A stretch of 64,000 bases of DNA from a virus: the IMG/VR virus record IMGVR_UViG_3300022602_000031, positions 64,001 through 128,000 of that record; one strand, 5' to 3'. Below, piece after piece: positions 6,198-64,000 of this stretch. Numbering within the stretch: the first letter of the stretch is position 1; every line of letters begins with the position of its first letter. The notes beneath the pieces were generated by a model. The model saw only the letters and a program-made list of their open reading frames with translations. It was not told the DNA's origin and ran no database searches. The position numbers and the translations under genes were made by a program.

Positions 6198-8207
6198 GTG
6201 GCAATTGGTAAAATAACGGGGACAATGTTATACAACAACCTGGAACGCCAGGGTGTACCCTTATCCATTGACGCAAACTTAGTTTACTTTGATGTAGCTA
6301 ATCGTTTCGTTGGTATTAACACAGCCAGTCCGGCCTATGCGTTAGATTCAACTGGTAATGCTCGTATTGCCAATCTATACATATTAGGCAACACAATCAG
6401 TAGTAACACAGGCGTTATTAGTCTTGGTTCTACTAGTAATATTTCTATCACTGGTGGCGCTCCTTATAATCTGTTAACAACAGACGGTAATGGTAATATG
6501 TCTTGGAACAGCGTTACCAGCATCATTACTAACAGTGGTGCGTTTGGTAATACCATTAACCTTGGTGCCAACACAGCAGGTTACTTGGTTAGTAACGCAG
6601 TATCACTAACAACTTCTACGTCAGTGACAAACGCTATTACACAATTAAACTATGTACTAGGCAAACTAGTACCTCCAAGCCCACCACCATTTCCTAATAG
6701 TACTACAATTTCTGTTGGAACTACTAACACTGGATTGATGTGTAACTTTACACAAACAGATAATTCAGGTTGGGGCAATCTTAGTGTCAGCGCAGGCACC
6801 GGCGTTAGTACTTTACGTGCCGCAACAATGAGTACCAGCGGTACTCCTATATTAAACGTTGGTCCTGGTAGCTCTGGTACTATTACTGCCTATATTAATA
6901 ACGTGCCAAACGGTAACGTAACATTAACAGGATCAAATTCAAATACAACCAATGGTAACCTTTATGTCTATAACGTACAAGATTACCACAACGTAGTAAG
7001 TAGTGTGACAGCTGGCTTCTGGACTAGCTTTAGTGCTTATGCTACAGCCACCGGTGGTATGTTGCCAGGGTGGAATCGTGTACGTCTTTATGATTCAAGT
7101 ACAGGCGCCGCGACCAATGACGCAACCTGGTACTATGATTCAAGCACACCGGGTAACCCAACTTACAGCAATACCAGTATTTCATTGACATCAAACGTGG
7201 TAACGTATTCAAGTACAATACCAATGTTTACTAGCTCAGCACAATTTACCTTAAAAGGCAACGTAAGTAACCTAAGTGGTGATACATACCCAAACACATC
7301 AACTCCGTTGGCTGGTATAGCCGGCGGAGCATTCCAAGCGCCGGTAAGTTTAAACTATGCTGGATTTGGAGTTACTTCCCCGCTAGCCAGAAATCTTTAT
7401 GTCAGTTCTGGTAGTGCGTATTTTCAAACAACTACTAATATTGTAGCTTCGGGTTTTAGTTCTAGTGCAACTGGGCCACAGGTACAGGTTACCAATGGCT
7501 ATAATACTGCTAACCAAACTTTTAGTCCGGGCGTAACTATTTTATATAAAAATGGTACAGGTAATACCATCGAAGAAACTATTATTACAGTACCGGGTAG
7601 TTTAGGTAGTGGATACAGTAGCAACGGATATCGTATTGTTAATCCTGACGCCGGTACAGCCGCAGATAATCCTACCTACACTGGTAGTGAATCAGCATTC
7701 AACAGTCAAACAGGTGCGTTTTATACAACTGATGCAACAGCAGTAGCAAATAAAATACAATTTGATCAAACAAACTATTCTACTGGTTACTTACCAGTTG
7801 GTCCTAATCTGTCAACACAGGGATCGGCACAATATTTTACATTCAGATTCCAGCGTAGTGCGTTAAGTAAGTTTAACGTTTCCTACACTGGTATACTAGC
7901 CGGACTATGGATCGCACTACCTGGAGTAACTGACGTTAGCTATGCTAGCCCAACAAAAGGGTGGACTAGTTTAGCCAGTGCTTACCTAGGATCAGGAGTT
8001 CCAGGAACAGGTTCAGGCGGTAACGGTAGTACAGGAGCCGCAGTTGGCGGTAATGCCACATTAAATTCATCAGGTACATATAGTATTACTGGTACATTTG
8101 GAACAGCAAGTTCAACAAGTAGTACCAATAACTATATCTACGTTAGAGTTAAATTAACATCAGGACAATCATTGACGGCGCTGAGTATAGCGGCCGCAAC
8201 TAACTAA
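6198..8207 (+). CDS. Tail fibre/baseplate structural protein (669 aa, GTG start)
   Basis: Ser/Thr/Gly/Asn-rich; VGINTASPAYALDSTG fibre motif. Confidence 0.65.
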   Translation: MAIGKITGTMLYNNLERQGVPLSIDANLVYFDVANRFVGINTASPAYALDSTGNARIANLYILGNTISSNTGVISLGSTSNISITGGAPYNLLTTDGNGNMSWNSVTSIITNSGAFGNTINLGANTAGYLVSNAVSLTTSTSVTNAITQLNYVLGKLVPPSPPPFPNSTTISVGTTNTGLMCNFTQTDNSGWGNLSVSAGTGVSTLRAATMSTSGTPILNVGPGSSGTITAYINNVPNGNVTLTGSNSNTTNGNLYVYNVQDYHNVVSSVTAGFWTSFSAYATATGGMLPGWNRVRLYDSSTGAATNDATWYYDSSTPGNPTYSNTSISLTSNVVTYSSTIPMFTSSAQFTLKGNVSNLSGDTYPNTSTPLAGIAGGAFQAPVSLNYAGFGVTSPLARNLYVSSGSAYFQTTTNIVASGFSSSATGPQVQVTNGYNTANQTFSPGVTILYKNGTGNTIEETIITVPGSLGSGYSSNGYRIVNPDAGTAADNPTYTGSESAFNSQTGAFYTTDATAVANKIQFDQTNYSTGYLPVGPNLSTQGSAQYFTFRFQRSALSKFNVSYTGILAGLWIALPGVTDVSYASPTKGWTSLASAYLGSGVPGTGSGGNGSTGAAVGGNATLNSSGTYSITGTFGTASSTSSTNNYIYVRVKLTSGQSLTALSIAAATN

Positions 8208-8208
8208 T

Positions 8209-11058
8209 ATGCCAATTAATCAGACCAACCAGGTAGACTATCTCTTTAAGAAAATTGGTTATAGCGTAGCTAAGACAGATACTACCACGGCCAAGAGTCC
8301 TAGTAACGAAACTATTGCCAGTCCTTTAAACTTACGTGGCGACGTAATTTGGCAACAGTCTGGACTGATACCAGCCACACAGCCATCATCGTCTACTGGA
8401 GTAGTTACAGTCTACAGTGATGCTAATAGCAATACTATTAAAACTACAGCAGACTCAACTAGTACAACATACCGTACCTGGAAAACTGGTATTACCGGAT
8501 GGATCAATCCTAGCTTTGGCGCAACCTATTCTGTTAAAGTCTATTGGGATAGTACTAGCACAATTAGTCCACAGACATCTGGAACACAGTTATTCCCAGA
8601 TGGTACCGGTAATGACGACGAGTGGTTCTTTGACTACGACGCAGGTGTACTAACATTCCCAGATAACATTCCCACAACAGTCGCAGCCGGCGGAACAAAA
8701 ACTATCTATATTGTTGGAGCAGTCTACAATGGTATTATTGGTATTGGTAACATTAATGCTAATACTATTGTTGGTACACTAGCTACAGCCAACGTTGGCT
8801 TATATGCCAACGTTTTAACAACATCAACTAACTTTAACTACTATCCAATTTTAGGTAATATATTTGGTGGTAACACGCAACATTTTGTCAGCTCTGCTAT
8901 TACACTAAATGCCAGCACTGGTAACTTAACAGTTAGTAATGTAACAGCAACTCAATTCAACGGCAGTTTAATTGGACCAGTATCGACCCCAACACAAACA
9001 TTAATTACCACAGTTGGTACACTGACCAATTTAACAGTGGCTGGTAATACAACAACAGCCAACCTATTGGCTACCAATGGCAATATTGTAAATTTAATTT
9101 CTACAGTCGCAAATATTTCTACCGCTAATATTGTTACTGCAAATATTACAACAGCAGTAGGTAATGTCGCAACATTTACCTATTTAAACAGCGCAGTAAG
9201 TACAATTACCAATTTAACCGTAACAGCCAATACCATAACTGGTAATTTATATACTCCACAGGCCAACGTATCTACATTGATAGCGTCTGGTAATGTATAT
9301 GCCGGCGCTCTAGTCGGCCCATTTTATGGCAACGTAAATACTACCTGGGTGTTAGGTGGCAACGGTAATGTAAATATTCAACCTGGCGGATTAAGTGTTA
9401 CTAACCTAATAGGCAATACAGCAGTAAGTTTACCAGTAGGAACTACACTACAACGTCCGGCAAACGTAGCCGGTTATACTCGATACAATAGCGATATAAA
9501 TTCATTGGAATATTTCAATGGCACAATATGGGTTAGCGTCACTGGTGCTATTTCAGATCAAACCTTTAGTGGTGATGGTGTTAGTCAATCATTCAGTTTA
9601 AATAGCGCAACTACTGCAAGTGGTATATTAGTCAGCGTTAACGGTGTTGTACAAAATCCAAACACATATACAGTCAATGGTGCCGGAACACAAATTACAT
9701 TTTCTGAAATACCATTGACAACTGACGTAATTGATATTCGTTATTTGGGTGCGGCATTGGCCACAACCTCATCGTATGGTAACACTCAGGTTGCCGCTTA
9801 TCTTCTAGCTAATCCGCAAGGTTCAACTTATAGTAATAGTAATGTGGCCAGCTATTTGGTTAGTGGTACAGATTCTACTATATCAACTATACAGGCCAAC
9901 GTTGGCACCTTGTACCTGGGCAATTCGTTGACCAACTCTAGCTTAACAGCATTCAAGAACTATGCTAACCTGACATTTGCTATTGGTTCAGGTAACGCCA
10001 ACATTACCAGTGCGCTGTCCAGCTATTCAGGCAATATCAATGCCAATTATCTTGTGGCTAACACTATTATTACTAGTGGTAGTACATCATCTAATATCAG
10101 TGGTGTAAATTGGCTTACGGCTAATGCTATCACAAGCGGTAACCTGTTGACTGGCAACATATATTTTGCTAACGGTACAAGTTATATGTATGGTGTTTCA
10201 AATTATATGACTAGCCAATTTTTAACTTGGGCTTACAATCAATCATTTTCCTCACCGGTAACTATGGGCGGAACTGGAACAGCATTAAACGTACTCAATG
10301 GTAATATTAATGTTGGACAAAATAATACAAATTTTATGGGAATAAGTACTAGCGGTACAATATATGCTGGTACACCATATGCTGGCTATAACCCAGCCAA
10401 CAGCGTAGTTGCATATGGCAATGTATACGTAGGCTTCCAGAATTGGCCTTACGGACTTTATACATACGGTGGAGTATTCTGGGCCGGAAATAATCAACCC
10501 TACAACGGAGTAAATTTATACAGTAACGTCACGGTGGCCAGTTTCTTACCAACTTACTCAGGAAATATATCTGCTAACGTGCATTTTGGTAATACGTATG
10601 CTTATGCCAACGGGGTAAGTATTCTAAATGGTTTATACTCAAATTCTAATGTGGCCAGCTACCTAACTACTGGTAATATTACGATAGGTAATACTTTCCA
10701 ACAGAGCGGTTACTATGAAAACTTTAGTAACGTAACCAACTCCGGTGGTAACCTAACCTGCAACTTAAACTCCGGCGACATATTCTATGCCGCTTTAACA
10801 GGTAATGTTACAGCTAATTTTACCAACGTAATTCCGGCAGTAGGCACCACAGTTAGTGCTACAATTATTTTTGATCTAGATGTTAACCCTTACACTATCA
10901 GTAACATACAAATCAATGGAGTTAATCAAACTGTGCGATGGGCTGGCGGCTTGTCTCCTTATGTCACTGCAAGCAATACTAACATTGCCAGCTTTAGTAT
11001 GTTTAATCTAAACGGTACTATTTATAGAGTATTGGGACAAATCGGTAACTACGGATAA
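8209..11058 (+). CDS. Tail fibre protein (949 aa)
   Basis: Fibre shaft repeats; C-terminal beta domain (…VRWAGG…FSMF…YRVLG) shared with 31022. Confidence 0.7.
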   Translation: MPINQTNQVDYLFKKIGYSVAKTDTTTAKSPSNETIASPLNLRGDVIWQQSGLIPATQPSSSTGVVTVYSDANSNTIKTTADSTSTTYRTWKTGITGWINPSFGATYSVKVYWDSTSTISPQTSGTQLFPDGTGNDDEWFFDYDAGVLTFPDNIPTTVAAGGTKTIYIVGAVYNGIIGIGNINANTIVGTLATANVGLYANVLTTSTNFNYYPILGNIFGGNTQHFVSSAITLNASTGNLTVSNVTATQFNGSLIGPVSTPTQTLITTVGTLTNLTVAGNTTTANLLATNGNIVNLISTVANISTANIVTANITTAVGNVATFTYLNSAVSTITNLTVTANTITGNLYTPQANVSTLIASGNVYAGALVGPFYGNVNTTWVLGGNGNVNIQPGGLSVTNLIGNTAVSLPVGTTLQRPANVAGYTRYNSDINSLEYFNGTIWVSVTGAISDQTFSGDGVSQSFSLNSATTASGILVSVNGVVQNPNTYTVNGAGTQITFSEIPLTTDVIDIRYLGAALATTSSYGNTQVAAYLLANPQGSTYSNSNVASYLVSGTDSTISTIQANVGTLYLGNSLTNSSLTAFKNYANLTFAIGSGNANITSALSSYSGNINANYLVANTIITSGSTSSNISGVNWLTANAITSGNLLTGNIYFANGTSYMYGVSNYMTSQFLTWAYNQSFSSPVTMGGTGTALNVLNGNINVGQNNTNFMGISTSGTIYAGTPYAGYNPANSVVAYGNVYVGFQNWPYGLYTYGGVFWAGNNQPYNGVNLYSNVTVASFLPTYSGNISANVHFGNTYAYANGVSILNGLYSNSNVASYLTTGNITIGNTFQQSGYYENFSNVTNSGGNLTCNLNSGDIFYAALTGNVTANFTNVIPAVGTTVSATIIFDLDVNPYTISNIQINGVNQTVRWAGGLSPYVTASNTNIASFSMFNLNGTIYRVLGQIGNYG

Positions 11059-55582: not shown

Positions 55583-56596
55583 ATGGAAATAATCAAAGCC
55601 ACTAATGGCTTTCCTTATGCTTGGAAAGCGGGCCGTGTTGAACGACTTATACGCAGTATACTAGAAACCAAAGCCCAAGAACAACTTAATGTCAATCGTG
55701 TAATGATTGTCAATCCAACCTGGCTACACGAAACTAATCTAGCCGAAGACATCCAAAATACCCGTCCAGATTTTATTATCTGTCATAACTTTGTAGATCC
55801 TGCTGTACCAAAAATATTTGAAGCAATACAAAACAGTGGCGTGCCGTACATTATACTAGGTAACAGTGAGCAATATCGTTTAGACTTTTGGGCAATGGTC
55901 TGTGACTTTTATTTTCAAGACTATACCGAGCAAGATGTAGAAGTACAGTCCGGCGCACGTAAATTTATCTGCTTAAATCGTAAACCACACCCACATCGTG
56001 TAGCACTAGTCAATCAATTATTACCATTGAAAGATTTGGGCTACATAAGTTTAGGTACACCGGGTAGCCCTATTACTATCGAAGAAGAATTCAGCGACGA
56101 TCAAGGCATCCGCGACGAATATCAAAATTTAGGTGTCGAACGTTTTGTAAGCAATCAAATACGCAATGATATTTTTAGTCTCGGCAGTCTTGAAGTATGG
56201 CGTCGTAGTTTCTTATGCTTAGTAACAGAAACAGAATTCAGTAATGCTAATCCTGGCAATTTTTTTACCAGCGAAAAAACATTTAAACCTATTATAGGTA
56301 TGCGACCATTTTTTATATATGGGCAACCACAGTTACGTGCTTATTTAAAAGCCGAAGGGTTTGACATATTTGAAGATATATTTGATTACAGTATAGTAAA
56401 CAATTCTGCCGCAGATCCTATGCAACAGCAACAGTACGCACAGGTAGCAATAAACGCTATTACACAACTTGGCGACCCAGTGGAATTGTATCGCCGGCAT
56501 TTTTATCGATTCCAACAAAACAAAGCTAGATTTCATACTTACGTATACAAACAATGGCAACGACTCAATGAACTTGATCTACGACAATTTATTTGA
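55583..56596 (+). CDS. Putative GT-B glycosyltransferase (GT10-like)
   Basis: RKFICLNRKPHPHR, LVTETE…SEKTFKPI..MRPF..YG…L..EGF…FDYS. Confidence 0.55.
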   Translation: MEIIKATNGFPYAWKAGRVERLIRSILETKAQEQLNVNRVMIVNPTWLHETNLAEDIQNTRPDFIICHNFVDPAVPKIFEAIQNSGVPYIILGNSEQYRLDFWAMVCDFYFQDYTEQDVEVQSGARKFICLNRKPHPHRVALVNQLLPLKDLGYISLGTPGSPITIEEEFSDDQGIRDEYQNLGVERFVSNQIRNDIFSLGSLEVWRRSFLCLVTETEFSNANPGNFFTSEKTFKPIIGMRPFFIYGQPQLRAYLKAEGFDIFEDIFDYSIVNNSAADPMQQQQYAQVAINAITQLGDPVELYRRHFYRFQQNKARFHTYVYKQWQRLNELDLRQFI

Positions 56597-57335
56597 TGTC
56601 CCACAGTGGAGTCTTGTTAACAATCCTTTTTATCAGTATGACCGCGGAAGTCAACATACTCTAATCACTGTTGGTGATTCGTGGACCTGGGGTGATAGTC
56701 TGGGTAAAACCAAAGTGCGAAATCAAATCGATGACGAAGCATATAGACTCAAACACGTGTATGGAAATATTGTCAGCGAACAACTTGGGTATAATTGGGC
56801 TAATTTGGCGTTACCTGGTGCTAGTAATGCTAGAGTGCTCAATTGGTTGTTTCGATATCTCGATAGGCTAATAAACGAAGACGTTACCTGTGTAATAACA
56901 TTAACAGAATCAGGGCGCCACGAAGAACTTAGATTTGTTGACTACACACGTACACAACAGCAAACATTAGAAATCATACTAGATCATACCTACGATCGTA
57001 TTGCCATAATGCAGGCTAAATTTCCTAGTATTAAATTTATTGTAGCACATAACTTTACAGACAGTCGCCCGTCCACAATTCCCATACTTGAAAAATCTTG
57101 GCTGGAAGTGTTGTTAAACAAACAGATTCAAAAAGACACGCACATTGTTGTGTCAGAACACATTGAACAAATGAATTACGATCGGTGGTATGCTGATGTT
57201 GCTGAAATTGTAGATAGAGCCAATGATAGAATTGATTTGTTGGACAGTTGCGATTATTGTAATACTGGTGATACAAGACACCCCAATGAACAAGGCCACA
57301 ATTTGTGGGCCAACTACTTATTAACACAATTATGA
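56568..57335 (+). CDS. SGNH-fold protein (probable start ATG 56568)
   Basis: VGDSWTWG, NLALPGASN, DTRHPNEQGH; paralogue of 3379. Confidence 0.8.
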   Translation: MNLIYDNLFDVPQWSLVNNPFYQYDRGSQHTLITVGDSWTWGDSLGKTKVRNQIDDEAYRLKHVYGNIVSEQLGYNWANLALPGASNARVLNWLFRYLDRLINEDVTCVITLTESGRHEELRFVDYTRTQQQTLEIILDHTYDRIAIMQAKFPSIKFIVAHNFTDSRPSTIPILEKSWLEVLLNKQIQKDTHIVVSEHIEQMNYDRWYADVAEIVDRANDRIDLLDSCDYCNTGDTRHPNEQGHNLWANYLLTQL

Positions 57336-58288
57336 TCGAACAGGCCGTTACCGTCACTGACACAGAGATACTGATACTAGCACAGTTCTTTATACACAAA
57401 GACTTTGCGGTAACCAAACGCGACGTGTTACTGGATATACTAGGGCGACACTATCGAGACCAAACGGTACGCATACGATTACTAGACGGGGAAAACAGCA
57501 ACTTCAGTGGGTTTACAGATTTTCTGTTATGGATTAGTCAAAACCTAAACATACCTCGAGAACGTTTTATCATCGAAAGTCACAGACCCGATGAGCCCTT
57601 CCCACACTCAAAACTACGTTTGGGAATTTTTATCAGTGTCAATCAATACTTGCCAACTATAGTACCCGATCTAGGCCAGGCACGTTTTGTTGGAACTCTA
57701 TTAGGTAGATACAATATAAATCGAGTTAGATTAGCCTACGAATTAGATTGTGCTTTCCCCGACGATACATACATAACATTTCAACCAAAGTTAGATTTTG
57801 TTGTTAGGGACCTACAGCATTTTGGTAGCTTATATCAAAATGAATTAGCGTGGCTACACAACAAACAATTTGACATTGATTTACAAAGCCGTCATCATAT
57901 GGGAATGATAGACTGGCCTGAAAGTTGTCAGGCCTACGGAAATGTATGGAACCAGTATCAAATTGAAGTTGTATCCGAGACAGACAGCATAAGCGATTAT
58001 TGGTTTACTGAAAAGACTGCTAACTGTTTGGCAACAGGTAAACCGTTTGTACTAGTAGCCGGCACGGGTAGCCTACAACGCCTGCGTGATATGGGTTTCC
58101 AAACATTTGGGGAAGTTTTAGATGAGTCCTACGATTTAGCCAAACACCCATACGAACGCATTAAACGCTTGACAACCAGCCTACAACAGTTGTATACTAG
58201 CCCAAGTAAAGCAGATGATTTAAAACAGCTTTACCGTTTGGCTAGCCAAAATATTGAACATTATCGACAATTTTCAGTTCGGCAATAA
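57332..58288 (+). CDS. Putative GT-B glycosyltransferase (GT10-like; probable start 57332)
   Basis: LLGR…NR, EVVSETD…FTEKTANCL..GKPF…G..L..L..MGF…DESYD; ATGA-coupled. Confidence 0.55.
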   Translation: MIEQAVTVTDTEILILAQFFIHKDFAVTKRDVLLDILGRHYRDQTVRIRLLDGENSNFSGFTDFLLWISQNLNIPRERFIIESHRPDEPFPHSKLRLGIFISVNQYLPTIVPDLGQARFVGTLLGRYNINRVRLAYELDCAFPDDTYITFQPKLDFVVRDLQHFGSLYQNELAWLHNKQFDIDLQSRHHMGMIDWPESCQAYGNVWNQYQIEVVSETDSISDYWFTEKTANCLATGKPFVLVAGTGSLQRLRDMGFQTFGEVLDESYDLAKHPYERIKRLTTSLQQLYTSPSKADDLKQLYRLASQNIEHYRQFSVRQ

Positions 58289-58396: not shown

Positions 58397-59389
58397 ATGG
58401 CAATGACATTAGCAGAAATCCGCGCAAAACTTCAAGCAAACGAAAATCGCGGTCAAGGTAGTAAACAATCAGGTGGCGACAACGCTATCTATCCACACTG
58501 GAACATCGCAGAAGGTTCCACAACTCGAGTAAGATTCCTCCCAGACGGTAACACAAGTAACAGCTTCTTTTGGGCTGAGCGAGCAATGATTAATTTAGAG
58601 TTCGCAGGTGTAAAAGGTCAGGTTGACAGCAAACGTGTAACAGTCAAAGTTCCTTGTATGGAAATGTACGGAGAACAATGTCCAATTTTAGCTGAGGTAC
58701 GTCCTTGGTTTAAAGATCCAAGTTTAGAAGATATGGGTCGTAAGTATTGGAAAAAGAAGAGTTATGTATTCCAAGGTTTTGTACGTGAAAACGCACTGAC
58801 AGATGATACAACTCCAGAGAACCCAATCCGTCGCTTTACTATCAGCCCACAGATTTTTAATATCATTAAAGCGGCATTGATGGATCCAGAGATGGAAGAA
58901 TTGCCAACTGACTACGGTCGTGGCCTAGATTTCCAAATTGTTAAAACATCCAAAGGTGGCTATGCTGACTACTCTACAAGTAAGTGGTCACGTAAAGAAT
59001 CTGCTCTTACAGCAGAAGAACAAGCCGCTATTGATCAATTCGGTCTATTTAATCTGTCAGACTTCTTACCTAAGAAGCCAACTGAAGCAGACTTAAAAGT
59101 ATTGGTAGAAATGTTCCACGCTAGTGTCGAAGGCGAGCCATATGACGCCGAGCGTTGGGGTGCTTACTACAAACCATTTGGTTTAGATGTTGGTAATGCT
59201 AGTAAGCCAGCGGCACCAGCGGCCGATGATGCTGACGAAACACCAGCACCTGTAGCCAAAGCGGCTCCAGCAGTAGACGAAGATGATACACCAGCTCCTA
59301 CAGCTCCAGTGGCAGCTCCGGCAGCGGCACCATCCAGTCAACGTGCTGAAGACATCCTAGCGATGATCCGTAATCGCCAAAAGCAGTAA
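58397..59389 (+). CDS. gp32: Single-stranded DNA-binding protein
   Basis: VRFLPDG, CPIL, KYWKKKSY, P.D…G.DF..VK..KGGY.DY..SKW; Ala/Pro/acidic linker. Confidence 0.93.
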   Translation: MAMTLAEIRAKLQANENRGQGSKQSGGDNAIYPHWNIAEGSTTRVRFLPDGNTSNSFFWAERAMINLEFAGVKGQVDSKRVTVKVPCMEMYGEQCPILAEVRPWFKDPSLEDMGRKYWKKKSYVFQGFVRENALTDDTTPENPIRRFTISPQIFNIIKAALMDPEMEELPTDYGRGLDFQIVKTSKGGYADYSTSKWSRKESALTAEEQAAIDQFGLFNLSDFLPKKPTEADLKVLVEMFHASVEGEPYDAERWGAYYKPFGLDVGNASKPAAPAADDADETPAPVAKAAPAVDEDDTPAPTAPVAAPAAAPSSQRAEDILAMIRNRQKQ

Positions 59390-59410
59390 TAATATAGCTT
59401 GTGTCTAAAA

Positions 59411-59436
59411 TAGTGGGGGAAGACGATCCCCCACTA
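59411..59436 (+). promoter_or_regulatory. Perfect 10-bp hairpin without U tract (attenuator, processing or stabilising element)
   Basis: TAGTGGGGGA-AGACGA-TCCCCCACTA, 7 nt before ATG 59444. Confidence 0.6.
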
Positions 59437-59443
59437 CCTGTTT

Positions 59444-60055
59444 ATGTTATCATACATTGACCCGATACTGTTCCCAGACGAGTGCGAGATACTTGAAATA
59501 TCTCCAATGAACTACGTCTATCCTATTTTTAAAAACGGTAGTAGTGGTCTTAGAGAAAAAGCTATACGTACACTTACTGCCGACCAGATGCGCAAACTTG
59601 GCAACGTAAACATTTATTTGCGTGACCCATTTGAACGTTATGTAAGCGGAGTACAAACTTACTTACGCTACAATCCACATCTTGATCGCACAACAGCATT
59701 GACAATGATTGATCAATACCTGTTCTTAGATCGACACTTTGCTCTACAGTTCCATTGGATAGTAAACTTACAAAGATTTGCGGATGATCTATGGATGACC
59801 TTTTTACCAATGTCGGAGCTCAACGATAACATCAATGAAACTTGGAACACTATCAGTAGAGATGAAACATTAATAGAGTATTTCAGCAATAATAAAAAAT
59901 TACAGTTTTATCTAATGCTAGATAAAATCCTATTAGATTTTATAGGGCAACCATCTAAGATGACAATGATACTAGCACACATTAAAGTAGAGTATCCTGA
60001 ACTATACGCAGAAATAATTCAACGAAGCAGAAACTTATGCGCTGTCCTAGACTAG
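59444..60055 (+). CDS. Sulfotransferase-like protein (Sulfotransfer_2/HNK-1 type)
   Basis: PIFKNGSS (5'-PAPS-binding loop-like), LRDPFERYVSG (3'-phosphate motif), DRHF..Q. Confidence 0.7.
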   Translation: MLSYIDPILFPDECEILEISPMNYVYPIFKNGSSGLREKAIRTLTADQMRKLGNVNIYLRDPFERYVSGVQTYLRYNPHLDRTTALTMIDQYLFLDRHFALQFHWIVNLQRFADDLWMTFLPMSELNDNINETWNTISRDETLIEYFSNNKKLQFYLMLDKILLDFIGQPSKMTMILAHIKVEYPELYAEIIQRSRNLCAVLD

Positions 60056-60921
60056 ATCACTTTGTACGCTTTAATCATAATGGCACAGTTAGTCGCTGTG
60101 GGCATATGGTTAATCCTGCACAGTTTGATTCTCTAGCACAAATGGATTCTAGTGTATGGTTGCGTAAGATTAAAGAACAGTTTGAACAAGACCAATGGCC
60201 AAACGAATGCCGTCGTTGCGAAGAAACAGAACGGTTAAATGGTGTTAGTGTACGTACACACAGTATCGATTTTGACAGCCAACAAACACAGGCAGACTAC
60301 TTAACAGTTGGTGGTGTACTAGACAATATATGCAACAGCGCCTGTATGACTTGCCACGAGGGATTGAGTACAAAGATTGGCAGTCTAAAAAGTAAAACAT
60401 ATACAATAGTAGATAATACCAATCGCTTTTGGGCATTGCCACAAGAACGTATTGTACACTTAGACCTAAATGGCGGCGAGCCTAGCCATAGTCGAAATTA
60501 CAAGACAGTTATTAACAACCTACCAGTCACAGTTAAGAGTATTAGATTAAATACAAATTGTAGCACATTACTAACAGAGCTAGAAGATTTAGTTGCTCGC
60601 GGCATTGATGTTACAGTTACAGTAAGCCTAGATGGAATTCAAGAAGTACACGACTTTATACGTTGGCCCATTAAATGGGATAAGTTCTACGCAAATCTTA
60701 TGGCATATAAGCGTATGCCTGTAAAGTTAAATCTATGGACAACGGTTAGTGTATTAAATGAACATCAATTACCGGAAATTATCGCCTTTGCACGGTTGCA
60801 CGGCATTGATCACGAGTACGCATACTTAAAACATCCGGCAGTATTAGATGTCAATAATAAAGATCAGGCGTCAATTCAAGCATACATACAAGAACAAAAG
60901 AAGTTACGAGGCATAGAATGA
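60037..60921 (+). CDS. Radical SAM protein with N-terminal twitch/SPASM-like Cys domain
   Basis: CNSACMTC, LNGGEP, SLDG; N-terminal CPRL…SRC…ECRRC. Confidence 0.88.
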   Translation: MRCPRLDHFVRFNHNGTVSRCGHMVNPAQFDSLAQMDSSVWLRKIKEQFEQDQWPNECRRCEETERLNGVSVRTHSIDFDSQQTQADYLTVGGVLDNICNSACMTCHEGLSTKIGSLKSKTYTIVDNTNRFWALPQERIVHLDLNGGEPSHSRNYKTVINNLPVTVKSIRLNTNCSTLLTELEDLVARGIDVTVTVSLDGIQEVHDFIRWPIKWDKFYANLMAYKRMPVKLNLWTTVSVLNEHQLPEIIAFARLHGIDHEYAYLKHPAVLDVNNKDQASIQAYIQEQKKLRGIE

Positions 60922-61409
60922 AAATAGCAATCACCGGACATACATCAGGTATTGGGCAAGCACTAGCCGAAGCATACCACGGACACGACATTGTTGGCCT
61001 AAGTAAACGTGATGGTAATAATATACGCAATACTCCAAAGATTGCTAGTTTAATAGAACCTTGTGATATGTTTATTAACAATGCTCAAGAAGGATTTGCA
61101 CAAACAGAATTATTATTTGAAGTAACTCAACGCTGGGCAACTACTAACAAACAAATTATAGTTATTAGTACAATGATGACTCAGCAACCTATTAGTAGCA
61201 TAGAAGGAATGGATGAGTATCGACTACAAAAAGTCGCTCTAGAGCAAGCAGTGCAACAGTTAAGATTCAAATATCCACAAGGTCCTAAAATTACTATTGT
61301 GCGCCCCGGCCGTGTTGATAACCCAAAATTATGGGCAAGAACATTAGTTGGCCTATTTAGAATGGCCGAATCCAATGGCCTGGCTATCCCGGATATATCT
61401 CTAAGATGA
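60918..61409 (+). CDS. Minimal short-chain dehydrogenase/reductase
   Basis: TGHTSGIG, FINNA, ISTM, YRLQK (YxxxK), RPG. Confidence 0.85.
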   Translation: MKIAITGHTSGIGQALAEAYHGHDIVGLSKRDGNNIRNTPKIASLIEPCDMFINNAQEGFAQTELLFEVTQRWATTNKQIIVISTMMTQQPISSIEGMDEYRLQKVALEQAVQQLRFKYPQGPKITIVRPGRVDNPKLWARTLVGLFRMAESNGLAIPDISLR

Positions 61410-62542
61410 CACCAAAAGACGTATTAACCAATCCTTACTTTTGCCCTATGCCGTGGACAGGGCTTATGTATAACTTCAACGGTGATGTTAAAAACTGTAT
61501 ACGTAGCAGTGAACCGATTGGTAACATTAAAAGTAGTCCTATAGAATCTATCCTGACCAATATGCATAATCAGGATACACAGTTTCGTATGATTCAAGGA
61601 ACCCCAGGACAAAAATGTTTTCCCTGCTATGAATTAGATCAAGGTCAACGTGGATTTAATCATATCAGCGACCGCGTATTTTATATTAAAGAATTAAAGT
61701 CTGTGCCAATGGATACATATCGTATGGGGCATCACGATCTACATACCATTGATGTACGGTGGACCAATTTATGTAACTTTGCCTGTACCTATTGCGGTCC
61801 AAGATTTAGCAGTCGGTGGGCAGAAGAACTTGGAGCAGAACAGTCAGTGCCTACGGAAGAACAACGTAGTAAATTTAAAGAATATATATTCCGTCACGCA
61901 CCAACATTGAAACACGTATATATGGCCGGTGGCGAACCTTTATTAATGAAAGAAAATCTAGAGCTATTAAACCTATTAGATCCTGATGTTAATTTACGCA
62001 TCAATACAAATCTAAGCAAAGTAGATACTCGTGTATTTGATCGTGTTTGCGAATTTCGTAATGTACATTGGACTGTTAGTGTGGACTCAATTGAATCGGA
62101 ATACGAATACATTAGATATGGCGGTCGCTGGACAGACTTTTTAGATAATCTAATGACTATCAAAAAACTTGGACACAAGGTTTCGTTTAATATGTTACAT
62201 TTTATATTAAACTACAACAGCATATTTGGGTGTGTTGATTATTTTAAAGAACAAGGTTTCCATAATAACAGTTTTATTATCGGACCTTTGTTGACTCCTG
62301 AATATCTAAATGTTAGACATTTACCAGACTCAGTATTAGATACAGTCAAGGCTACGCTCGAAGACCGTATCAATGCTAAACCAGGATTCCTATTAGAAAA
62401 TAGTTATGTGAATATGCTTAACTATATTAAACAGCCAATGCTAAAAAACCTAGCAAACTCGTTTACTCAAATTGGTATTATAGATCAACGTAGAGGATTA
62501 GACAGTAGTAAAATCTTTCAGGAGTTATATGGATACCGTTAA
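61406..62542 (+). CDS. Radical SAM protein with N-terminal twitch/SPASM-like domain
   Basis: CNFACTYC, MAGGEP, NTN, SVDS; N-terminal FCPMPW…KNC…KCFPC. Confidence 0.9.
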   Translation: MTPKDVLTNPYFCPMPWTGLMYNFNGDVKNCIRSSEPIGNIKSSPIESILTNMHNQDTQFRMIQGTPGQKCFPCYELDQGQRGFNHISDRVFYIKELKSVPMDTYRMGHHDLHTIDVRWTNLCNFACTYCGPRFSSRWAEELGAEQSVPTEEQRSKFKEYIFRHAPTLKHVYMAGGEPLLMKENLELLNLLDPDVNLRINTNLSKVDTRVFDRVCEFRNVHWTVSVDSIESEYEYIRYGGRWTDFLDNLMTIKKLGHKVSFNMLHFILNYNSIFGCVDYFKEQGFHNNSFIIGPLLTPEYLNVRHLPDSVLDTVKATLEDRINAKPGFLLENSYVNMLNYIKQPMLKNLANSFTQIGIIDQRRGLDSSKIFQELYGYR

Positions 62543-63638
62543 CTCTATTGGGTTTGCTTTAGATCCTGCTAATGTACCTAGCTTTTTGCTTGATTGGGAG
62601 TTGACCAAGTTATGTAATTTGGATTGTAGCTATTGTACAGTTGGTATCAACGGTGGTCACGATAACACAACCAAGCATCCACCATTGGCAGACTGTTTAC
62701 AGTCAATTGATTTTATGTATGAGTATGTAGATCAATATATGCTGTATAAAAAGCCAACTCAGCGTAAAGTAGTATTAAACGTCTACGGAGGGGAAAGTTT
62801 ATTTCACCCTGACATTGTAGAAATCTTGCGCGAATGCCATAGTAGATACGAACACTATAGTGATCGTTGGGATTTGACCATTACCTGCACTACCAATGCT
62901 GTAGTAGGCGCAAGGCGTTGGGCAGAGATAGTGCCAATGGTAGACGAATTTACTGTAAGTTACCATCCAGAGAATTTACCCAAACAACGTCAACAATATT
63001 TGGATAACTTAATGTATCTTCAGGCACAAGGTAAACGATTTAAAGCCATTGTTATGATGCATAATCAACCTGAGCTGTTTGCCGATGCCGAATCTGTTGT
63101 AGCGTTTTGCCAAGACCACAATATGCGTTATTTGGCTAAACCTTTAGACAACACCAGTGAACGTTGGGCCTACACACCAGAACAGTTTGCTCGTATCACT
63201 GAACAACCTGTGACATTTGTTAAAAAAGTCAGCAGTATCAATGAAGGCCGGGCCTGCTGTGGTGGTCGTAGACTTAGCCTAAATGGCGATCTACGAAGTA
63301 ACGTTGGGTTTGTAGCCCGGCAAGGATTCACTGGTTGGTCGTGTAGTGTAAATTGGTTCTTTTTATTCGTACGTCAACTTGATGGTGCGGTGTTTACCAA
63401 TAAAGATTGCCGTATGAGTACGACTGGAAAAGAAGAACCACTGGGAAATATTGCTGAAGCAAAAAAGATTATAAGTAAGCTACAGACCCAATTAGAAACC
63501 AACACAATGCCCATTATAAGTTGTAAAAAAGCAATTTGTCGTTGTGGGTTCTGTGCCCCAAAAGCTGAAAGTGAACAAGACTTTCGAGCGTTAATTAAGA
63601 GAAACGTTGTAGTTGACGTTTTTCAAAAAGAGTGTTAA
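62529..63638 (+). CDS. Radical SAM protein with C-terminal Cys-rich auxiliary domain
   Basis: CNLDCSYC, YGGESLFHP, CTTN; C-terminal CCGG…CS.NW…DC…CKKAICRCGFC. Confidence 0.9.
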   Translation: MDTVNSIGFALDPANVPSFLLDWELTKLCNLDCSYCTVGINGGHDNTTKHPPLADCLQSIDFMYEYVDQYMLYKKPTQRKVVLNVYGGESLFHPDIVEILRECHSRYEHYSDRWDLTITCTTNAVVGARRWAEIVPMVDEFTVSYHPENLPKQRQQYLDNLMYLQAQGKRFKAIVMMHNQPELFADAESVVAFCQDHNMRYLAKPLDNTSERWAYTPEQFARITEQPVTFVKKVSSINEGRACCGGRRLSLNGDLRSNVGFVARQGFTGWSCSVNWFFLFVRQLDGAVFTNKDCRMSTTGKEEPLGNIAEAKKIISKLQTQLETNTMPIISCKKAICRCGFCAPKAESEQDFRALIKRNVVVDVFQKEC

Positions 63639-63673: not shown

Positions 63674-64000
63674 ATGGGCAAACCATTTGACGTATCAAAA
63701 TTTCGCAAAAGCATCACAAAAAGTATCGACGGTATCTCCGTGGGCTTTACTGATCCAACAGATTGGATCTCAACAAATAATTACGCACTTAACTATTTGA
63801 TCAGTGGCGACTTTAACAAAGGCGTTCCACTAGGTAAAGTTACTGTGTTTGCTGGCGAATCGGGCGCAGGTAAATCATTTATCTGTAGCGGTAACTTAAT
63901 CAAGAACGCACAAGAGCAAGGCATTTATGTTATTCTTATTGATACAGAAAACGCCCTTGACGAGCCTTGGCTCAAAGCACTTGGTGTGGACACAAGTGAA
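63674..64000 (+). CDS. uvsX: RecA-like recombinase (partial, runs off the window)
   Basis: MGKPFDVSKFRK…NYLISG…GKVTVFAGESGAGKS Walker A…IDTENALD; SD AAGGA. Confidence 0.93.
   Translation, partial: MGKPFDVSKFRKSITKSIDGISVGFTDPTDWISTNNYALNYLISGDFNKGVPLGKVTVFAGESGAGKSFICSGNLIKNAQEQGIYVILIDTENALDEPWLKALGVDTSE

What the first reader, a model, noticed from the sequence alone, without database searches (positions are those of the whole stretch)
59444..63638. Five-gene sulfotransferase / rSAM / mini-SDR / rSAM / rSAM operon between gp32 and uvsX
All junctions overlap (19, 4, 4 and 14 bp), indicating one coupled unit. Two rSAMs place the Cys-rich auxiliary domain N-terminal to CxxxCxxC, the reverse of the usual twitch/SPASM order. 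The third has a C-terminal Cys-rich domain. The SDR is only 163 aa yet keeps TGxxxGIG, NNA and YxxxK. Established: twitch rSAMs such as BtrN oxidise sugars, and SDRs reduce or epimerise them. Inference: a pathway making an unusual sulfated sugar or nucleotide for the glycan system, or a DNA hypermodification given its replication-gene neighbours. I found no precursor peptide.
Basis: partly seen in the sequence, partly recalled or inferred. Interest (0 to 1): 0.78.

Follow-up and report, generated by a model that had tools for sequence, protein, structure and literature searches.

The report
Sulfotransferase-like plus radical-SAM phage cassette
An uncultured giant lake phage carries, in a gene-insertion hotspot between two DNA-replication genes, a modular set of tailoring enzymes whose never-separated core is a tiny sulfotransferase-like protein and an unusual radical-SAM enzyme; it probably modifies a sugar, and the chemistry has not been described.

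Summary
In detail: five co-directional ORFs with 19/4/4/14-bp overlaps and every stated motif. It is not one unit. Over 117 distinct gp32-uvsX intervals from related uncultured phages:
- g1 (sulfotransferase-like) and g2 (short N-twitch rSAM) are perfectly linked (51 both, 0 single).
- g3 (mini-SDR) occurs only with g4 (N-twitch rSAM) and only where g1-g2 are present.
- g5 assorts independently (8 alone, 6 with the cassette, 45 cassettes without it).

In a sample drawn through gp32, half the relatives have gp32 abutting uvsX. The site is therefore an insertion hotspot, and the replication neighbours say little about function.

The "reversed" Cys-domain order is the curated but uncharacterised NCBIfam family NF033640. 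This phage lineage carries 7-12 copies per genome, mostly beside glycosyltransferase, SGNH and NDP-sugar dehydratase genes. g1 is a sulfotransferase by fold and invariant PAPS-loop motifs, but by no curated threshold.

Best reading: carbohydrate-tailoring cargo (sulfation or sulfate activation plus radical chemistry; radical oxidation/dehydration plus NADPH ketoreduction). The substrate is unknown. PAPS supply is doubtful. Other first-stage readers of this scan noted the same cassette on other DNA.

The parts
59411..59436 (+). GC-rich hairpin (10-bp stem) between the gp32 stop and the g1 ATG; a likely attenuating terminator or mRNA-end structure that uncouples gp32 from the cassette
   Evidence: terminator-like site; sequence; hairpins with different stem sequences and T-rich tails sit at the same place in about 27 of 41 distinct loci; the other loci have only 10-24 nt between the genes.
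59444..60055 (+). g1: minimal (203 aa) sulfotransferase-fold protein; obligate partner of g2
   Evidence: No Pfam, PHROG or NCBIfam hit. AF2 model pLDDT 82. VIA-align top 19 rows are all sulfotransferase-fold proteins: 3-OST-5 Z 6.0, NDST1 4.8, Stf9 4.7. Invariant K30/G32/S34, R60/P62/R65/S68, H98, Q102, D160. 10 of 46 members weakly hit PF03567. Atlas structural neighbour is a viral Sulfotransfer_2 cluster, TM 0.62.
60037..60921 (+). g2: short N-terminal-twitch radical SAM enzyme; always found with g1
   Evidence: NF033640 130 bits (below the cut-off of 170) and PF04055 27.1 bits. Invariant C3/C21/C58/C61, C99/C103/C106 and GGEP146-149. Linked to g1 in 51 of 51 slots.
60918..61409 (+). g3: truncated classical-type SDR (163 aa), probably NADP(H)-dependent; optional module together with g4
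   Evidence: Weak Pfam and NCBIfam SDR hits. Profile against PDB: FabG and carbonyl reductases, E 1e-7, in two stretches. Invariant TGHxxGIG, NNAQ, Y101xxxK105, PG; S/T85; a basic residue after strand 2.
61406..62542 (+). g4: full-length N-terminal-twitch radical SAM enzyme (NF033640 member)
   Evidence: NF033640 232.7 bits against a cut-off of 170; PF04055 65.5; PF13186 at residues 13-74. BtrN twitch alignment. Invariant Cys pattern.
62529..63638 (+). g5: radical SAM enzyme with an N-terminal CxxxCxxC and a distinct eight-Cys C-terminal domain; an independent, mobile member
   Evidence: PF04055 29.2 bits (cut-off 29.5); no SPASM hit; no PDB sequence hit. Conserved Cys in 44 homologues. Found alone in the slot, before g1 or after g4. 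Remote homologues lie in multi-rSAM clusters with an NDP-sugar dehydratase.
58397..59389 (+). gp32-type ssDNA-binding protein; conserved left border of the insertion hotspot
   Evidence: phrog_1192 E 7e-69; tblastn hits to jumbo phages.
63674..64000 (+). uvsX recombinase (runs off the window); conserved right border of the hotspot
   Evidence: Conserved at 72-91% identity in the related loci.
55583..58288 (+). Variable upstream trio: GT-B glycosyltransferase-fold protein (55583-56596), SGNH/GDSL-like protein (56469-57335), and a GT-related protein (57305-58288) sharing a C-terminal region with o4 and o132
   Evidence: AF2 model pLDDT 78. Foldseek: fucosyltransferase and other GT-B enzymes, probability 0.9 or above. 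VIA: T4 BGT and phage HY126 GT, Z 11.0. GDSL hits are weak. Paralogy. Present in some cassette-bearing loci and absent in others.

Best explanation
The stretch is accessory cargo in a hotspot between gp32 and uvsX of a freshwater jumbo-phage lineage. It is built from three separable parts.

(A) An obligate pair. g1 is a 203-aa sulfotransferase-fold protein that keeps the residues which bind PAPS and the catalytic Lys and His. g2 is a short radical SAM enzyme with an N-terminal four-Cys twitch domain.

(B) An optional pair. g3 is a truncated, NADP(H)-type SDR ketoreductase. g4 is a full-length N-twitch radical SAM enzyme (NF033640).

(C) g5 is an independent radical SAM enzyme with its own eight-Cys C-terminal domain.

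Inferred mechanism, not shown here. The enzymes tailor a carbohydrate, either a nucleotide-sugar or a sugar already within a glycan. Each N-twitch rSAM abstracts a sugar C-H, and the auxiliary cluster takes the electron. In pair B the resulting keto or dehydrated intermediate is reduced by the SDR, giving net epimerisation or deoxygenation, as in BtrN and AprD4/AprD3. In pair A the sulfotransferase either decorates the product or installs sulfate as a leaving group next to the radical site.

The product would feed the phage's very large glycan-building gene set. The final acceptor (virion, host envelope or DNA) is unknown.
For: Shown:
- Architecture and motifs.
- Linkage over 117 distinct slots: g1&g2 51 both/0 single; g3&g4 43 both/3 g4 only; g5 independent. 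A permuted order g3-g4-g1-g2 occurs in L021, L022 and L232.
- Hotspot: 35 of 67 slots sampled through gp32 are empty and 21 hold other cargo, including SGNH-like, other rSAM, formyltransferase-like and cupin-like genes.
- g1 sulfotransferase fold and motifs.
- g4 is an NF033640 member with a BtrN-like twitch domain. g3 resembles FabG and carbonyl reductases.

Context pointing to sugars:
- Seven NF033640 paralogues lie in this 180-kb fragment, five of them tandem in a cluster that another reader describes as GT/SGNH-rich.
- 10-12 copies are present in the complete relative G001, and 7-11 in relatives whose slot is empty.
- g5 and N-twitch homologues in distant phages sit beside homologues of o146, an NDP-sugar 4,6-dehydratase (PF16363 E 2e-49), and of o94.
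- o94 (up337), directly upstream of gp32, has a GT-B fold.

Precedent: AprD4, a radical SAM diol dehydratase, works with the NADPH-dependent reductase AprD3 to deoxygenate a sugar (PMC5461906).
Against: - No substrate evidence exists. No characterised NF033640 member was found in the literature searched.
- g1 reaches no curated sulfotransferase threshold, and its best structural Z is only 6.0, with no Foldseek hit at E <= 0.001.
- PAPS supply is doubtful. No APS kinase is present in this fragment or in the complete relative; its P-loop kinase scores 23.8 bits against a cut-off of 138.7. APS kinase passed the cut-off in only 5 of 41 genomes of the tentative host genus. The host assignment itself is weak.
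- The GT-B neighbour's best structural matches include the T4 DNA glucosyltransferases, so a DNA-linked sugar is not excluded.
- Twitch and SPASM rSAMs also commonly act on peptides.
- The upstream GT/SGNH trio is absent from several cassette-bearing loci, so the coupling to it is loose.
Confidence: 0.5

Rival explanations
1. DNA hypermodification. The cassette is made alongside the replication proteins and modifies a base or a DNA-linked sugar, for example by sulfating or radically rearranging a group on phage DNA to evade host nucleases.
For: It lies between gp32 and uvsX on the same strand, at this position in every locus with enough flank. The upstream GT-B protein's top structural rows are T4 beta-glucosyltransferase (Z 11.0) and alpha-glucosyltransferase (Z 9.8).
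Against: The junction is a hotspot, empty in 35 of 67 relatives, so position carries little functional weight. The GT-B rows are tied within 1 Z unit with many non-DNA glycosyltransferases. The complete cassette-bearing relative has a canonical ThyA that passes the equivalog cut-off, and no second PF00303 gene. None was found in this fragment either. The paralogues lie in glycan-type clusters.
Confidence: 0.12
2. Peptide or protein modification. The twitch-type rSAMs crosslink or epimerise a phage or host protein, and g1 sulfates it, in the manner of RiPP maturases or of RaxST/TPST.
For: Many secondary NCBIfam hits of g2, g4 and g5 are peptide maturases, all far below cut-off. The same genome has an rSAM/SPASM cassette tied to an Asn-Cys fibre protein (earlier notes). 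Tyrosylprotein sulfotransferases appear among the fold matches at Z 2.8-2.9.
Against: There is no precursor ORF and no intergenic room. No RRE-type or leader-binding domain was detected. Carbohydrate sulfotransferases outrank TPSTs. The best specific similarity of the twitch domain is to BtrN, a sugar/cyclitol enzyme.
Confidence: 0.12
3. Small-molecule or nucleotide metabolism unrelated to glycans, for example making or destroying a signalling nucleotide or cofactor as anti-defence, with g1 acting on a 3'-phospho-nucleotide other than PAPS.
For: PAPS may be scarce in the likely host. Expression with early or middle genes is plausible. Weak viperin-family similarity of g4 and g5, far below cut-off. 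All family neighbours are viral and unnamed.
Against: No specific similarity to any known anti-defence or nucleotide-modifying rSAM. PADLOC was not scanned and no defence link was seen. The genomic association of the paralogues is with GT, SGNH and NDP-sugar genes.
Confidence: 0.15
4. One reading: a single five-gene operon whose members co-evolve to make one sulfated sugar or nucleotide.
For: All five overlap in this window. The same five occur together in L009, L037 and L058-L060.
Against: g5 occurs alone in 8 slots, before g1 in others, and is missing from 45 of 51 cassettes. g1-g2 occur without g3-g4 in 6-8 slots.
Confidence: 0.08

Closest known systems
NCBIfam NF033640 (N_Twi_rSAM, twitch domain-containing radical SAM protein)
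   Same: g4 passes the curated cut-off (232.7 against 170 bits). It has four N-terminal Cys, then CxxxCxxC and GGEP. g2 shares the architecture.
   Different: g2 is about 100 residues shorter and scores below the cut-off (130 bits). The family has no characterised member that I could find. Here it is expanded to 7-12 copies per phage genome, and one copy is strictly paired with a sulfotransferase-like gene.
BtrN (2-deoxy-scyllo-inosamine dehydrogenase, twitch radical SAM; PDB 4m7s/4m7t)
   Same: The auxiliary four-Cys twitch domain aligns with the g4 N-terminus (E 3e-4). BtrN acts on a carbohydrate-like substrate. This is a works-like analogy for C-H abstraction with oxidation to a ketone.
   Different: In BtrN the domain is C-terminal, whereas here it is N-terminal. 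The core identity is low. The activity was not tested.
AprD4/AprD3 (radical SAM diol dehydratase plus NADPH-dependent reductase; apramycin C3' deoxygenation)
   Same: A two-gene logic of an rSAM followed by a nicotinamide-dependent ketoreductase acting on a sugar (PMC5461906), as proposed here for g4 and g3.
   Different: No sequence comparison was possible, because no AprD sequences were available from the tools. g3 is a truncated 163-aa SDR. This is an analogy only.
Carbohydrate sulfotransferases (Pfam PF03567 Sulfotransfer_2; heparan sulfate 3-O/2-O/6-O-sulfotransferases, NDST, mycobacterial Stf)
   Same: The fold (Z 4.6-6.0). The strand-loop-helix with K-x-G-S/T, like the 5'-phosphosulfate loop. 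The strand-helix with R-x-P-x-x-R-x-x-S, like the 3'-phosphate site. A conserved His.
   Different: Only 203 aa. No curated model is reached. The family of 272 clusters is separate, and its neighbours are all viral where taxa are known. The donor and acceptor are unknown.
Hyperplastic regions of T4-like phage genomes
   Same: Variable accessory cargo sits between conserved core genes (gp32 and uvsX). The slot is empty in half of the close relatives.
   Different: Here the cargo is a recurrent enzyme cassette, always in the same slot and often behind a covarying hairpin.

Membership tests
Radical SAM superfamily (PF04055) | CxxxCxxC cluster motif and a GGE-type SAM-binding motif; Pfam gathering score 29.5 | tested here: met
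   g4 scores 65.5 bits. g2 (27.1) and g5 (29.2) fall just under the score, but the Cys triad and GGEP/GGES are invariant in 12-44 homologues.
NF033640 N_Twi_rSAM | Curated whole-protein cut-off of 170 bits | tested here: met
   g4 scores 232.7 bits over model positions 2-396.
NF033640 N_Twi_rSAM | The same cut-off applied to g2 | tested here: not met
   g2 scores 130.4 bits over model positions 13-335. It is a truncated relative with the same four-Cys N-terminal domain.
Twitch/SPASM auxiliary cluster domain (PF13186) | A Cys-rich domain that matches the model and binds an auxiliary [4Fe-4S] cluster | tested here: met
   g4 residues 13-74 score 24.1 bits against 21.5 and align to the BtrN twitch domain. 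Cluster binding itself is not testable here. The C-terminal domain of g5 does not match PF13186.
Classical SDR (PF00106) | Pfam gathering score 26.6 | tested here: not met
   g3 scores 17.2 bits, over the N-terminal stretch only.
Classical SDR (PF00106) | TGxxxGxG, NNAG, the Ser-Tyr-Lys triad and the PG motif | tested here: met
   Invariant T6-G7-x3-G11-I-G13, N55-A-Q, S/T85, Y101, K105 and P130-G131. The profile hits FabG and carbonyl reductases in PDB at E 1e-7. About 40 residues between strands 2 and 4, and the C-terminal substrate loop, are missing.
Sulfotransferase (PF03567 / PF00685) | Pfam gathering score | tested here: not met
   g1 has no hit at E <= 1. 10 of 46 family members hit PF03567 weakly (best E 0.0016), and two slot paralogues score 13.7-16 bits against a cut-off of 22.
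Sulfotransferase (PF03567 / PF00685) | Sulfotransferase fold with 5'-PSB and 3'-PB PAPS-binding motifs and a catalytic base | tested here: inconclusive
   The top 19 VIA rows are all sulfotransferase-fold proteins, but Z is at most 6.0 and Foldseek gives no hit at E <= 0.001. K30 is kept in 111 of 120 members, R60 and R65 in 120, S68 in 103 and H98 in 118. The residue-level structural superposition was not seen.
Sulfotransferase (PF03567 / PF00685) | PAPS-dependent sulfate transfer | not testable with these tools
   This needs an enzyme assay. PAPS supply is uncertain.
AprD4/AprD3-type deoxygenation pair | Sequence kinship to AprD4 or AprD3 | not tested
   No AprD sequences were available from a tool. 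The analogy comes from PMC5461906.
RiPP maturase system | An adjacent precursor peptide gene | tested here: not met
   No intergenic space or small ORF lies between the genes. No peptide gene recurred in more than 100 related loci.

The most novel reading that the evidence does not exclude
The never-separated pair of a sulfotransferase-like protein and an N-twitch radical SAM enzyme carries out sulfate-activated radical chemistry. g1 installs sulfate as a leaving group, and g2 makes the neighbouring carbon radical so that sulfate is eliminated. This would be an undescribed route to deoxy or unsaturated sugars. Alternatively the product is a sulfated sugar displayed on the virion or on phage DNA.
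Probability: 0.12. Interest if true: 0.85.

Novelty: new variant of a known kind. Interest (0 to 1): 0.58.

Why it matters
The curated but uncharacterised N-twitch radical SAM family is a hallmark expansion of one lineage of uncultured freshwater jumbo phages, at 7-12 copies per genome. No copy passed the cut-off in 14 control cellular genomes.

One copy is strictly coupled to a minimal sulfotransferase-like protein found in at least 360 viral contig stretches. This gives enzymologists a compact two-gene system, with an optional SDR-rSAM pair, for assigning the family's first function.

It also points to unusually elaborate, possibly sulfated, phage-made glycans whose biological target is unknown: virion coat, host surface or DNA. 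Finally, the analysis shows that the gp32-uvsX junction is a cargo hotspot, which warns against reading function from those neighbours.

Tried and rejected
- Megablast and tblastn against deposited phages found almost nothing. No DNA match; g4 hits only Ralstonia phage RsoM2USA weakly; paralogue o7 hits only Vibrio phages K566/K567 and RsoM2USA, with all neighbours annotated as hypothetical.
- Plasmids: no match.
- PDB sequence searches with g1 profiles gave only chance-level hits. g5 had no PDB sequence hit.
- A search for fused, longer g1 forms found none, which is weak evidence. The 512-aa GT17-domain structural neighbour from the atlas therefore stays an unconfirmed lead.
- Genome-contig scan with the g4 profile found nothing. 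An alignment of the phage's paralogues was too diverged to use. The o7 scan gave only a Polynucleobacter-binned 2.5-kb contig and a Chitinophagaceae contig with two N-twitch rSAMs beside a cox operon, whose context was uninformative.
- 'relatives' cannot be drawn for a virus record.
- Literature searches for N-terminal twitch/SPASM rSAMs, rSAM with jumbo phage and glycosyltransferase, and rSAM with nucleotide sugar, twitch and epimerase returned nothing relevant.
- Phage-encoded PAPS synthesis is rejected. The APS-kinase-like hit in G001 is a generic P-loop kinase fused to an NMNAT-like domain.
- A MotA-type middle promoter at the conserved GCTTGTGTC box was considered and dropped, because the spacing to the TAAAAT is too short (own reasoning).

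Full report
**1. Observation**

They lie on the + strand between a gp32-type SSB gene and uvsX. Base composition is like that of the neighbours.

The window is bases 64001-128000 of a 180-kb IMG/VR record that CheckV rates about 50% complete. Its gp32 is under 60% identical to those of Sinorhizobium phage Phosso, Pseudomonas phage PA5oct and Agrobacterium phage Atu_ph07. This is therefore an uncultured jumbo phage. No deposited phage has the cassette.

**2. Gene identities**

*g4 and g2.* g4 passes the curated cut-off of NCBIfam NF033640, 'twitch domain-containing radical SAM protein' (232.7 against 170 bits). g2 is a shorter relative at 130 bits.
- Both keep four invariant N-terminal cysteines ahead of CxxxCxxC and GGEP.
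- The N-terminus of g4 matches Pfam SPASM and aligns with the C-terminal twitch domain of BtrN.
- The 'reversed' order is therefore real, but it is the defining trait of an already curated family. I found no paper that characterises any member of it.

*g5.* It has an N-terminal CxxxCxxC, GGES, and eight invariant C-terminal cysteines. This domain matches no SPASM model and no PDB sequence.

*g3.* It is a truncated classical-type SDR.
- TGHxxGIG, NNAQ, S/T85, Y101xxxK105 and PG are invariant.
- Its profile finds FabG and carbonyl reductases in two stretches.
- A basic residue after strand 2 suggests NADP(H). That is an inference from general SDR knowledge.
- It falls below Pfam's SDR threshold.

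*g1.* It has no hit in Pfam, PHROGs or NCBIfam. Its 625 relatives are all unnamed.
- An AlphaFold model (pLDDT 82) gave no Foldseek match at E <= 0.001.
- In an all-against-representatives alignment, the top 19 of 48,161 chains are all sulfotransferase-fold proteins: 18 sulfotransferases plus retinol dehydratase, a SULT-family enzyme. The best are 3-OST-5 at Z 6.0, NDST1 at 4.8 and Stf9 at 4.7.
- Across 120 diverse family members, K30 (111), R60 and R65 (120), S68 (103), H98 and Q102 (118) and D160 (116) are kept.
- Their positions in the model are a strand-loop-helix and a strand-helix. From general knowledge of the family, these correspond to the 5'-phosphosulfate and 3'-phosphate sites of sulfotransferases.
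- Ten of 46 members weakly hit Pfam Sulfotransfer_2, and no other family recurs.
- The protein atlas adds a viral Sulfotransfer_2 cluster as a structural neighbour.

I therefore accept 'sulfotransferase-fold, probably PAPS-type' for g1, but not membership by any curated threshold.

**3. Is it one unit?**

No. I fetched about 230 related viral loci, using g4, g1, g5, a g1-family profile and gp32 as queries. Across 117 distinct complete gp32-uvsX intervals:
- g1 and g2 are perfectly linked: 51 slots have both and none has only one.
- g3 never occurs without g4 or without g1-g2: 43 slots have g3 with g4, and 3 have g4 alone.
- g5 occurs alone in 8 slots and with g1-g4 in 6, and is missing from 45 cassettes.
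- g5 can lie before g1 or after g4.
- The order g3-g4-g1-g2 also exists. This supports two two-gene modules.

Other members come and go:
- a 157-189-aa family with an HxD...H pattern between g2 and g3;
- a second g1 paralogue;
- a protein of about 430 aa after g4;
- an SGNH-like protein.

In the sample drawn through gp32, which is the least biased one, 35 of 67 slots are empty, with gp32 and uvsX 58-73 bp apart. Another 21 hold unrelated cargo, including SGNH-like, other rSAM, formyltransferase-like and cupin-like genes. Ten hold the g1-g2 cassette. The junction is therefore an insertion hotspot.

In about two-thirds of the distinct loci, this window included (59411-59436), a GC-rich hairpin lies between gp32 and g1. 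Its stem sequences differ between loci and it has a T-rich tail. The cassette is probably transcribed by read-through at a lower level than gp32. This is an inference.

**4. Context and function**

The N-twitch family is greatly expanded in this lineage:
- seven copies over the cut-off in this half genome, five of them in tandem;
- ten over the cut-off, plus two just below it, in the complete 357-kb relative G001;
- eleven and seven in two relatives whose slot is empty;
- none over the cut-off in 14 control cellular genomes.

Several observations tie these families to carbohydrate chemistry:
- In distant phages, homologues of g5 and of the N-twitch rSAMs lie with homologues of o146 and o94.
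- o146 is an NDP-sugar 4,6-dehydratase.
- o94 (up337), directly upstream of gp32 in this window, has a GT-B glycosyltransferase fold.
- The closest specific similarity of the twitch domain is to BtrN.
- The AprD4/AprD3 pair is a precedent for an rSAM with an NADPH-dependent reductase acting on a sugar (PMC5461906).

Carbohydrate tailoring is thus the best-supported reading. I propose radical oxidation or dehydration followed by ketoreduction for g4+g3. For g1+g2 I propose sulfation, or sulfate activation coupled to radical chemistry. All substrate and mechanism statements are inferences.

**5. Points against, and the rivals**

*PAPS supply.*
- No APS kinase is encoded in this fragment or in G001.
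- In the genus of a MAG labelled Polynucleobacter, which holds a 78%-identical contig of a paralogue, APS kinase passed the cut-off in only 5 of 41 genomes. That MAG is only a weak clue to the host.
- If that genus is the host, the donor of g1 is an open problem.

*DNA hypermodification.* It is weakened by the hotspot result and by a canonical ThyA in G001. It is not excluded, because the T4 DNA glucosyltransferases are among the tied best structural matches of the GT-B neighbour.

*Peptide modification.* It lacks a precursor gene.

*A small-molecule or anti-defence role.* It cannot be excluded.

**6. Novelty**

The enzyme superfamilies are known, and the N-twitch arrangement is already catalogued. 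What is new:
- the strict pairing of a sulfotransferase-like protein with an N-twitch rSAM;
- the modular cassette built around that pair;
- its fixed hotspot;
- the scale of the family's expansion in one phage lineage.

Other first-stage readers of this scan noted the same cassette in other genomes, in variants with a DSBH-like gene or with two sulfotransferase-like genes and an ANL-like gene. Those are unchecked notes. My loci L016/L114 and L127/L131 show the corresponding architectures.

Noticed in passing
window 59395-59443 and the same position in L010, L016, L018, L027, L030, L105, L109 and others: A conserved box, GCTTGTGTC, lies just upstream of the covarying hairpin between gp32 and g1. 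The g1 ATG follows the hairpin's T-rich tail with no visible Shine-Dalgarno sequence. This may be a regulatory or processing element of the gp32 mRNA end.
   Followed up: partly
G000:C1:3285-11725 (before the window); G001:C1:318256-324692; G002 and G003: NF033640 N-twitch radical SAM genes are expanded to 7-12 copies per genome in this phage lineage, including five in tandem. None passes the cut-off in 14 control cellular genomes.
   Followed up: partly
L016:4989-5462, L114:7541-8014, L136:2179-2748, L159:2171-2716; remnant at L030:7481-7675: A conserved 157-189-aa protein family with an HxD...H pattern and a C-terminal PRIVASFTFHxEP motif is inserted between g2 and g3 in many relatives. It has no Pfam hit. 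Another first-stage reader called it 2OG/DSBH-like. L030 keeps only a 64-aa remnant.
   Followed up: partly
L131:5350-6000, L120:2875-3510; L127:8723-10003, L131:8733-10040: Some relatives carry a second g1-like paralogue (PKNGTRS / RDPxxRFxS / HxxPQ; weak PF03567) before g1, and an unknown protein of about 430 aa after g4 in place of g3. Another first-stage reader called the latter ANL-like.
   Followed up: partly
window 55583-58288: The trio upstream of gp32 is glycan-type: a GT-B fold protein (VIA top rows T4 beta-glucosyltransferase and phage HY126 GT, Z 11.0), an SGNH/GDSL-like protein paralogous to o52, and a protein sharing its C-terminal part with o4 and o132. The trio is present in only some cassette-bearing relatives.
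   Followed up: partly
L251 (CAYVBV010000193.1, 2.5-kb contig of a MAG labelled uncultured Polynucleobacter): The contig encodes a protein 78% identical to the phage's N-twitch paralogue o7. It is probably phage DNA binned with its host, which hints at the host and agrees with another agent's note of a Polynucleobacter-1 RNA motif in this genome.
   Followed up: partly
L252:6620-8026 (-) and about 7959-9305 (+): A genuine Chitinophagaceae-type contig (cox operon, T9SS protease, porin) carries two divergently oriented N-twitch radical SAM paralogues, 34-38% identical to o7. Cellular members therefore exist and also come in pairs.
   Followed up: partly
L250:610-1467 (G001:C1:329909-330766): A 285-aa protein with an N-terminal P-loop kinase domain (best Pfam hit APS_kinase at 29.7 bits, far below the NCBIfam equivalog cut-off) and an NMN-adenylyltransferase-like C-terminus lies about 5 kb from the tandem rSAM cluster of the complete relative. 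It may be NadR-like NAD salvage rather than sulfate activation.
   Followed up: partly
L198:7997-8722, L199:3837-4553, L224:4724-5620, L189:7991-9388, L199:4744-5181: Other cargo found in the gp32-uvsX slot of relatives: a formyltransferase-like protein, SGNH-like proteins, further radical SAM enzymes and a cupin-like protein. The hotspot collects tailoring-type enzymes generally.
   Followed up: no
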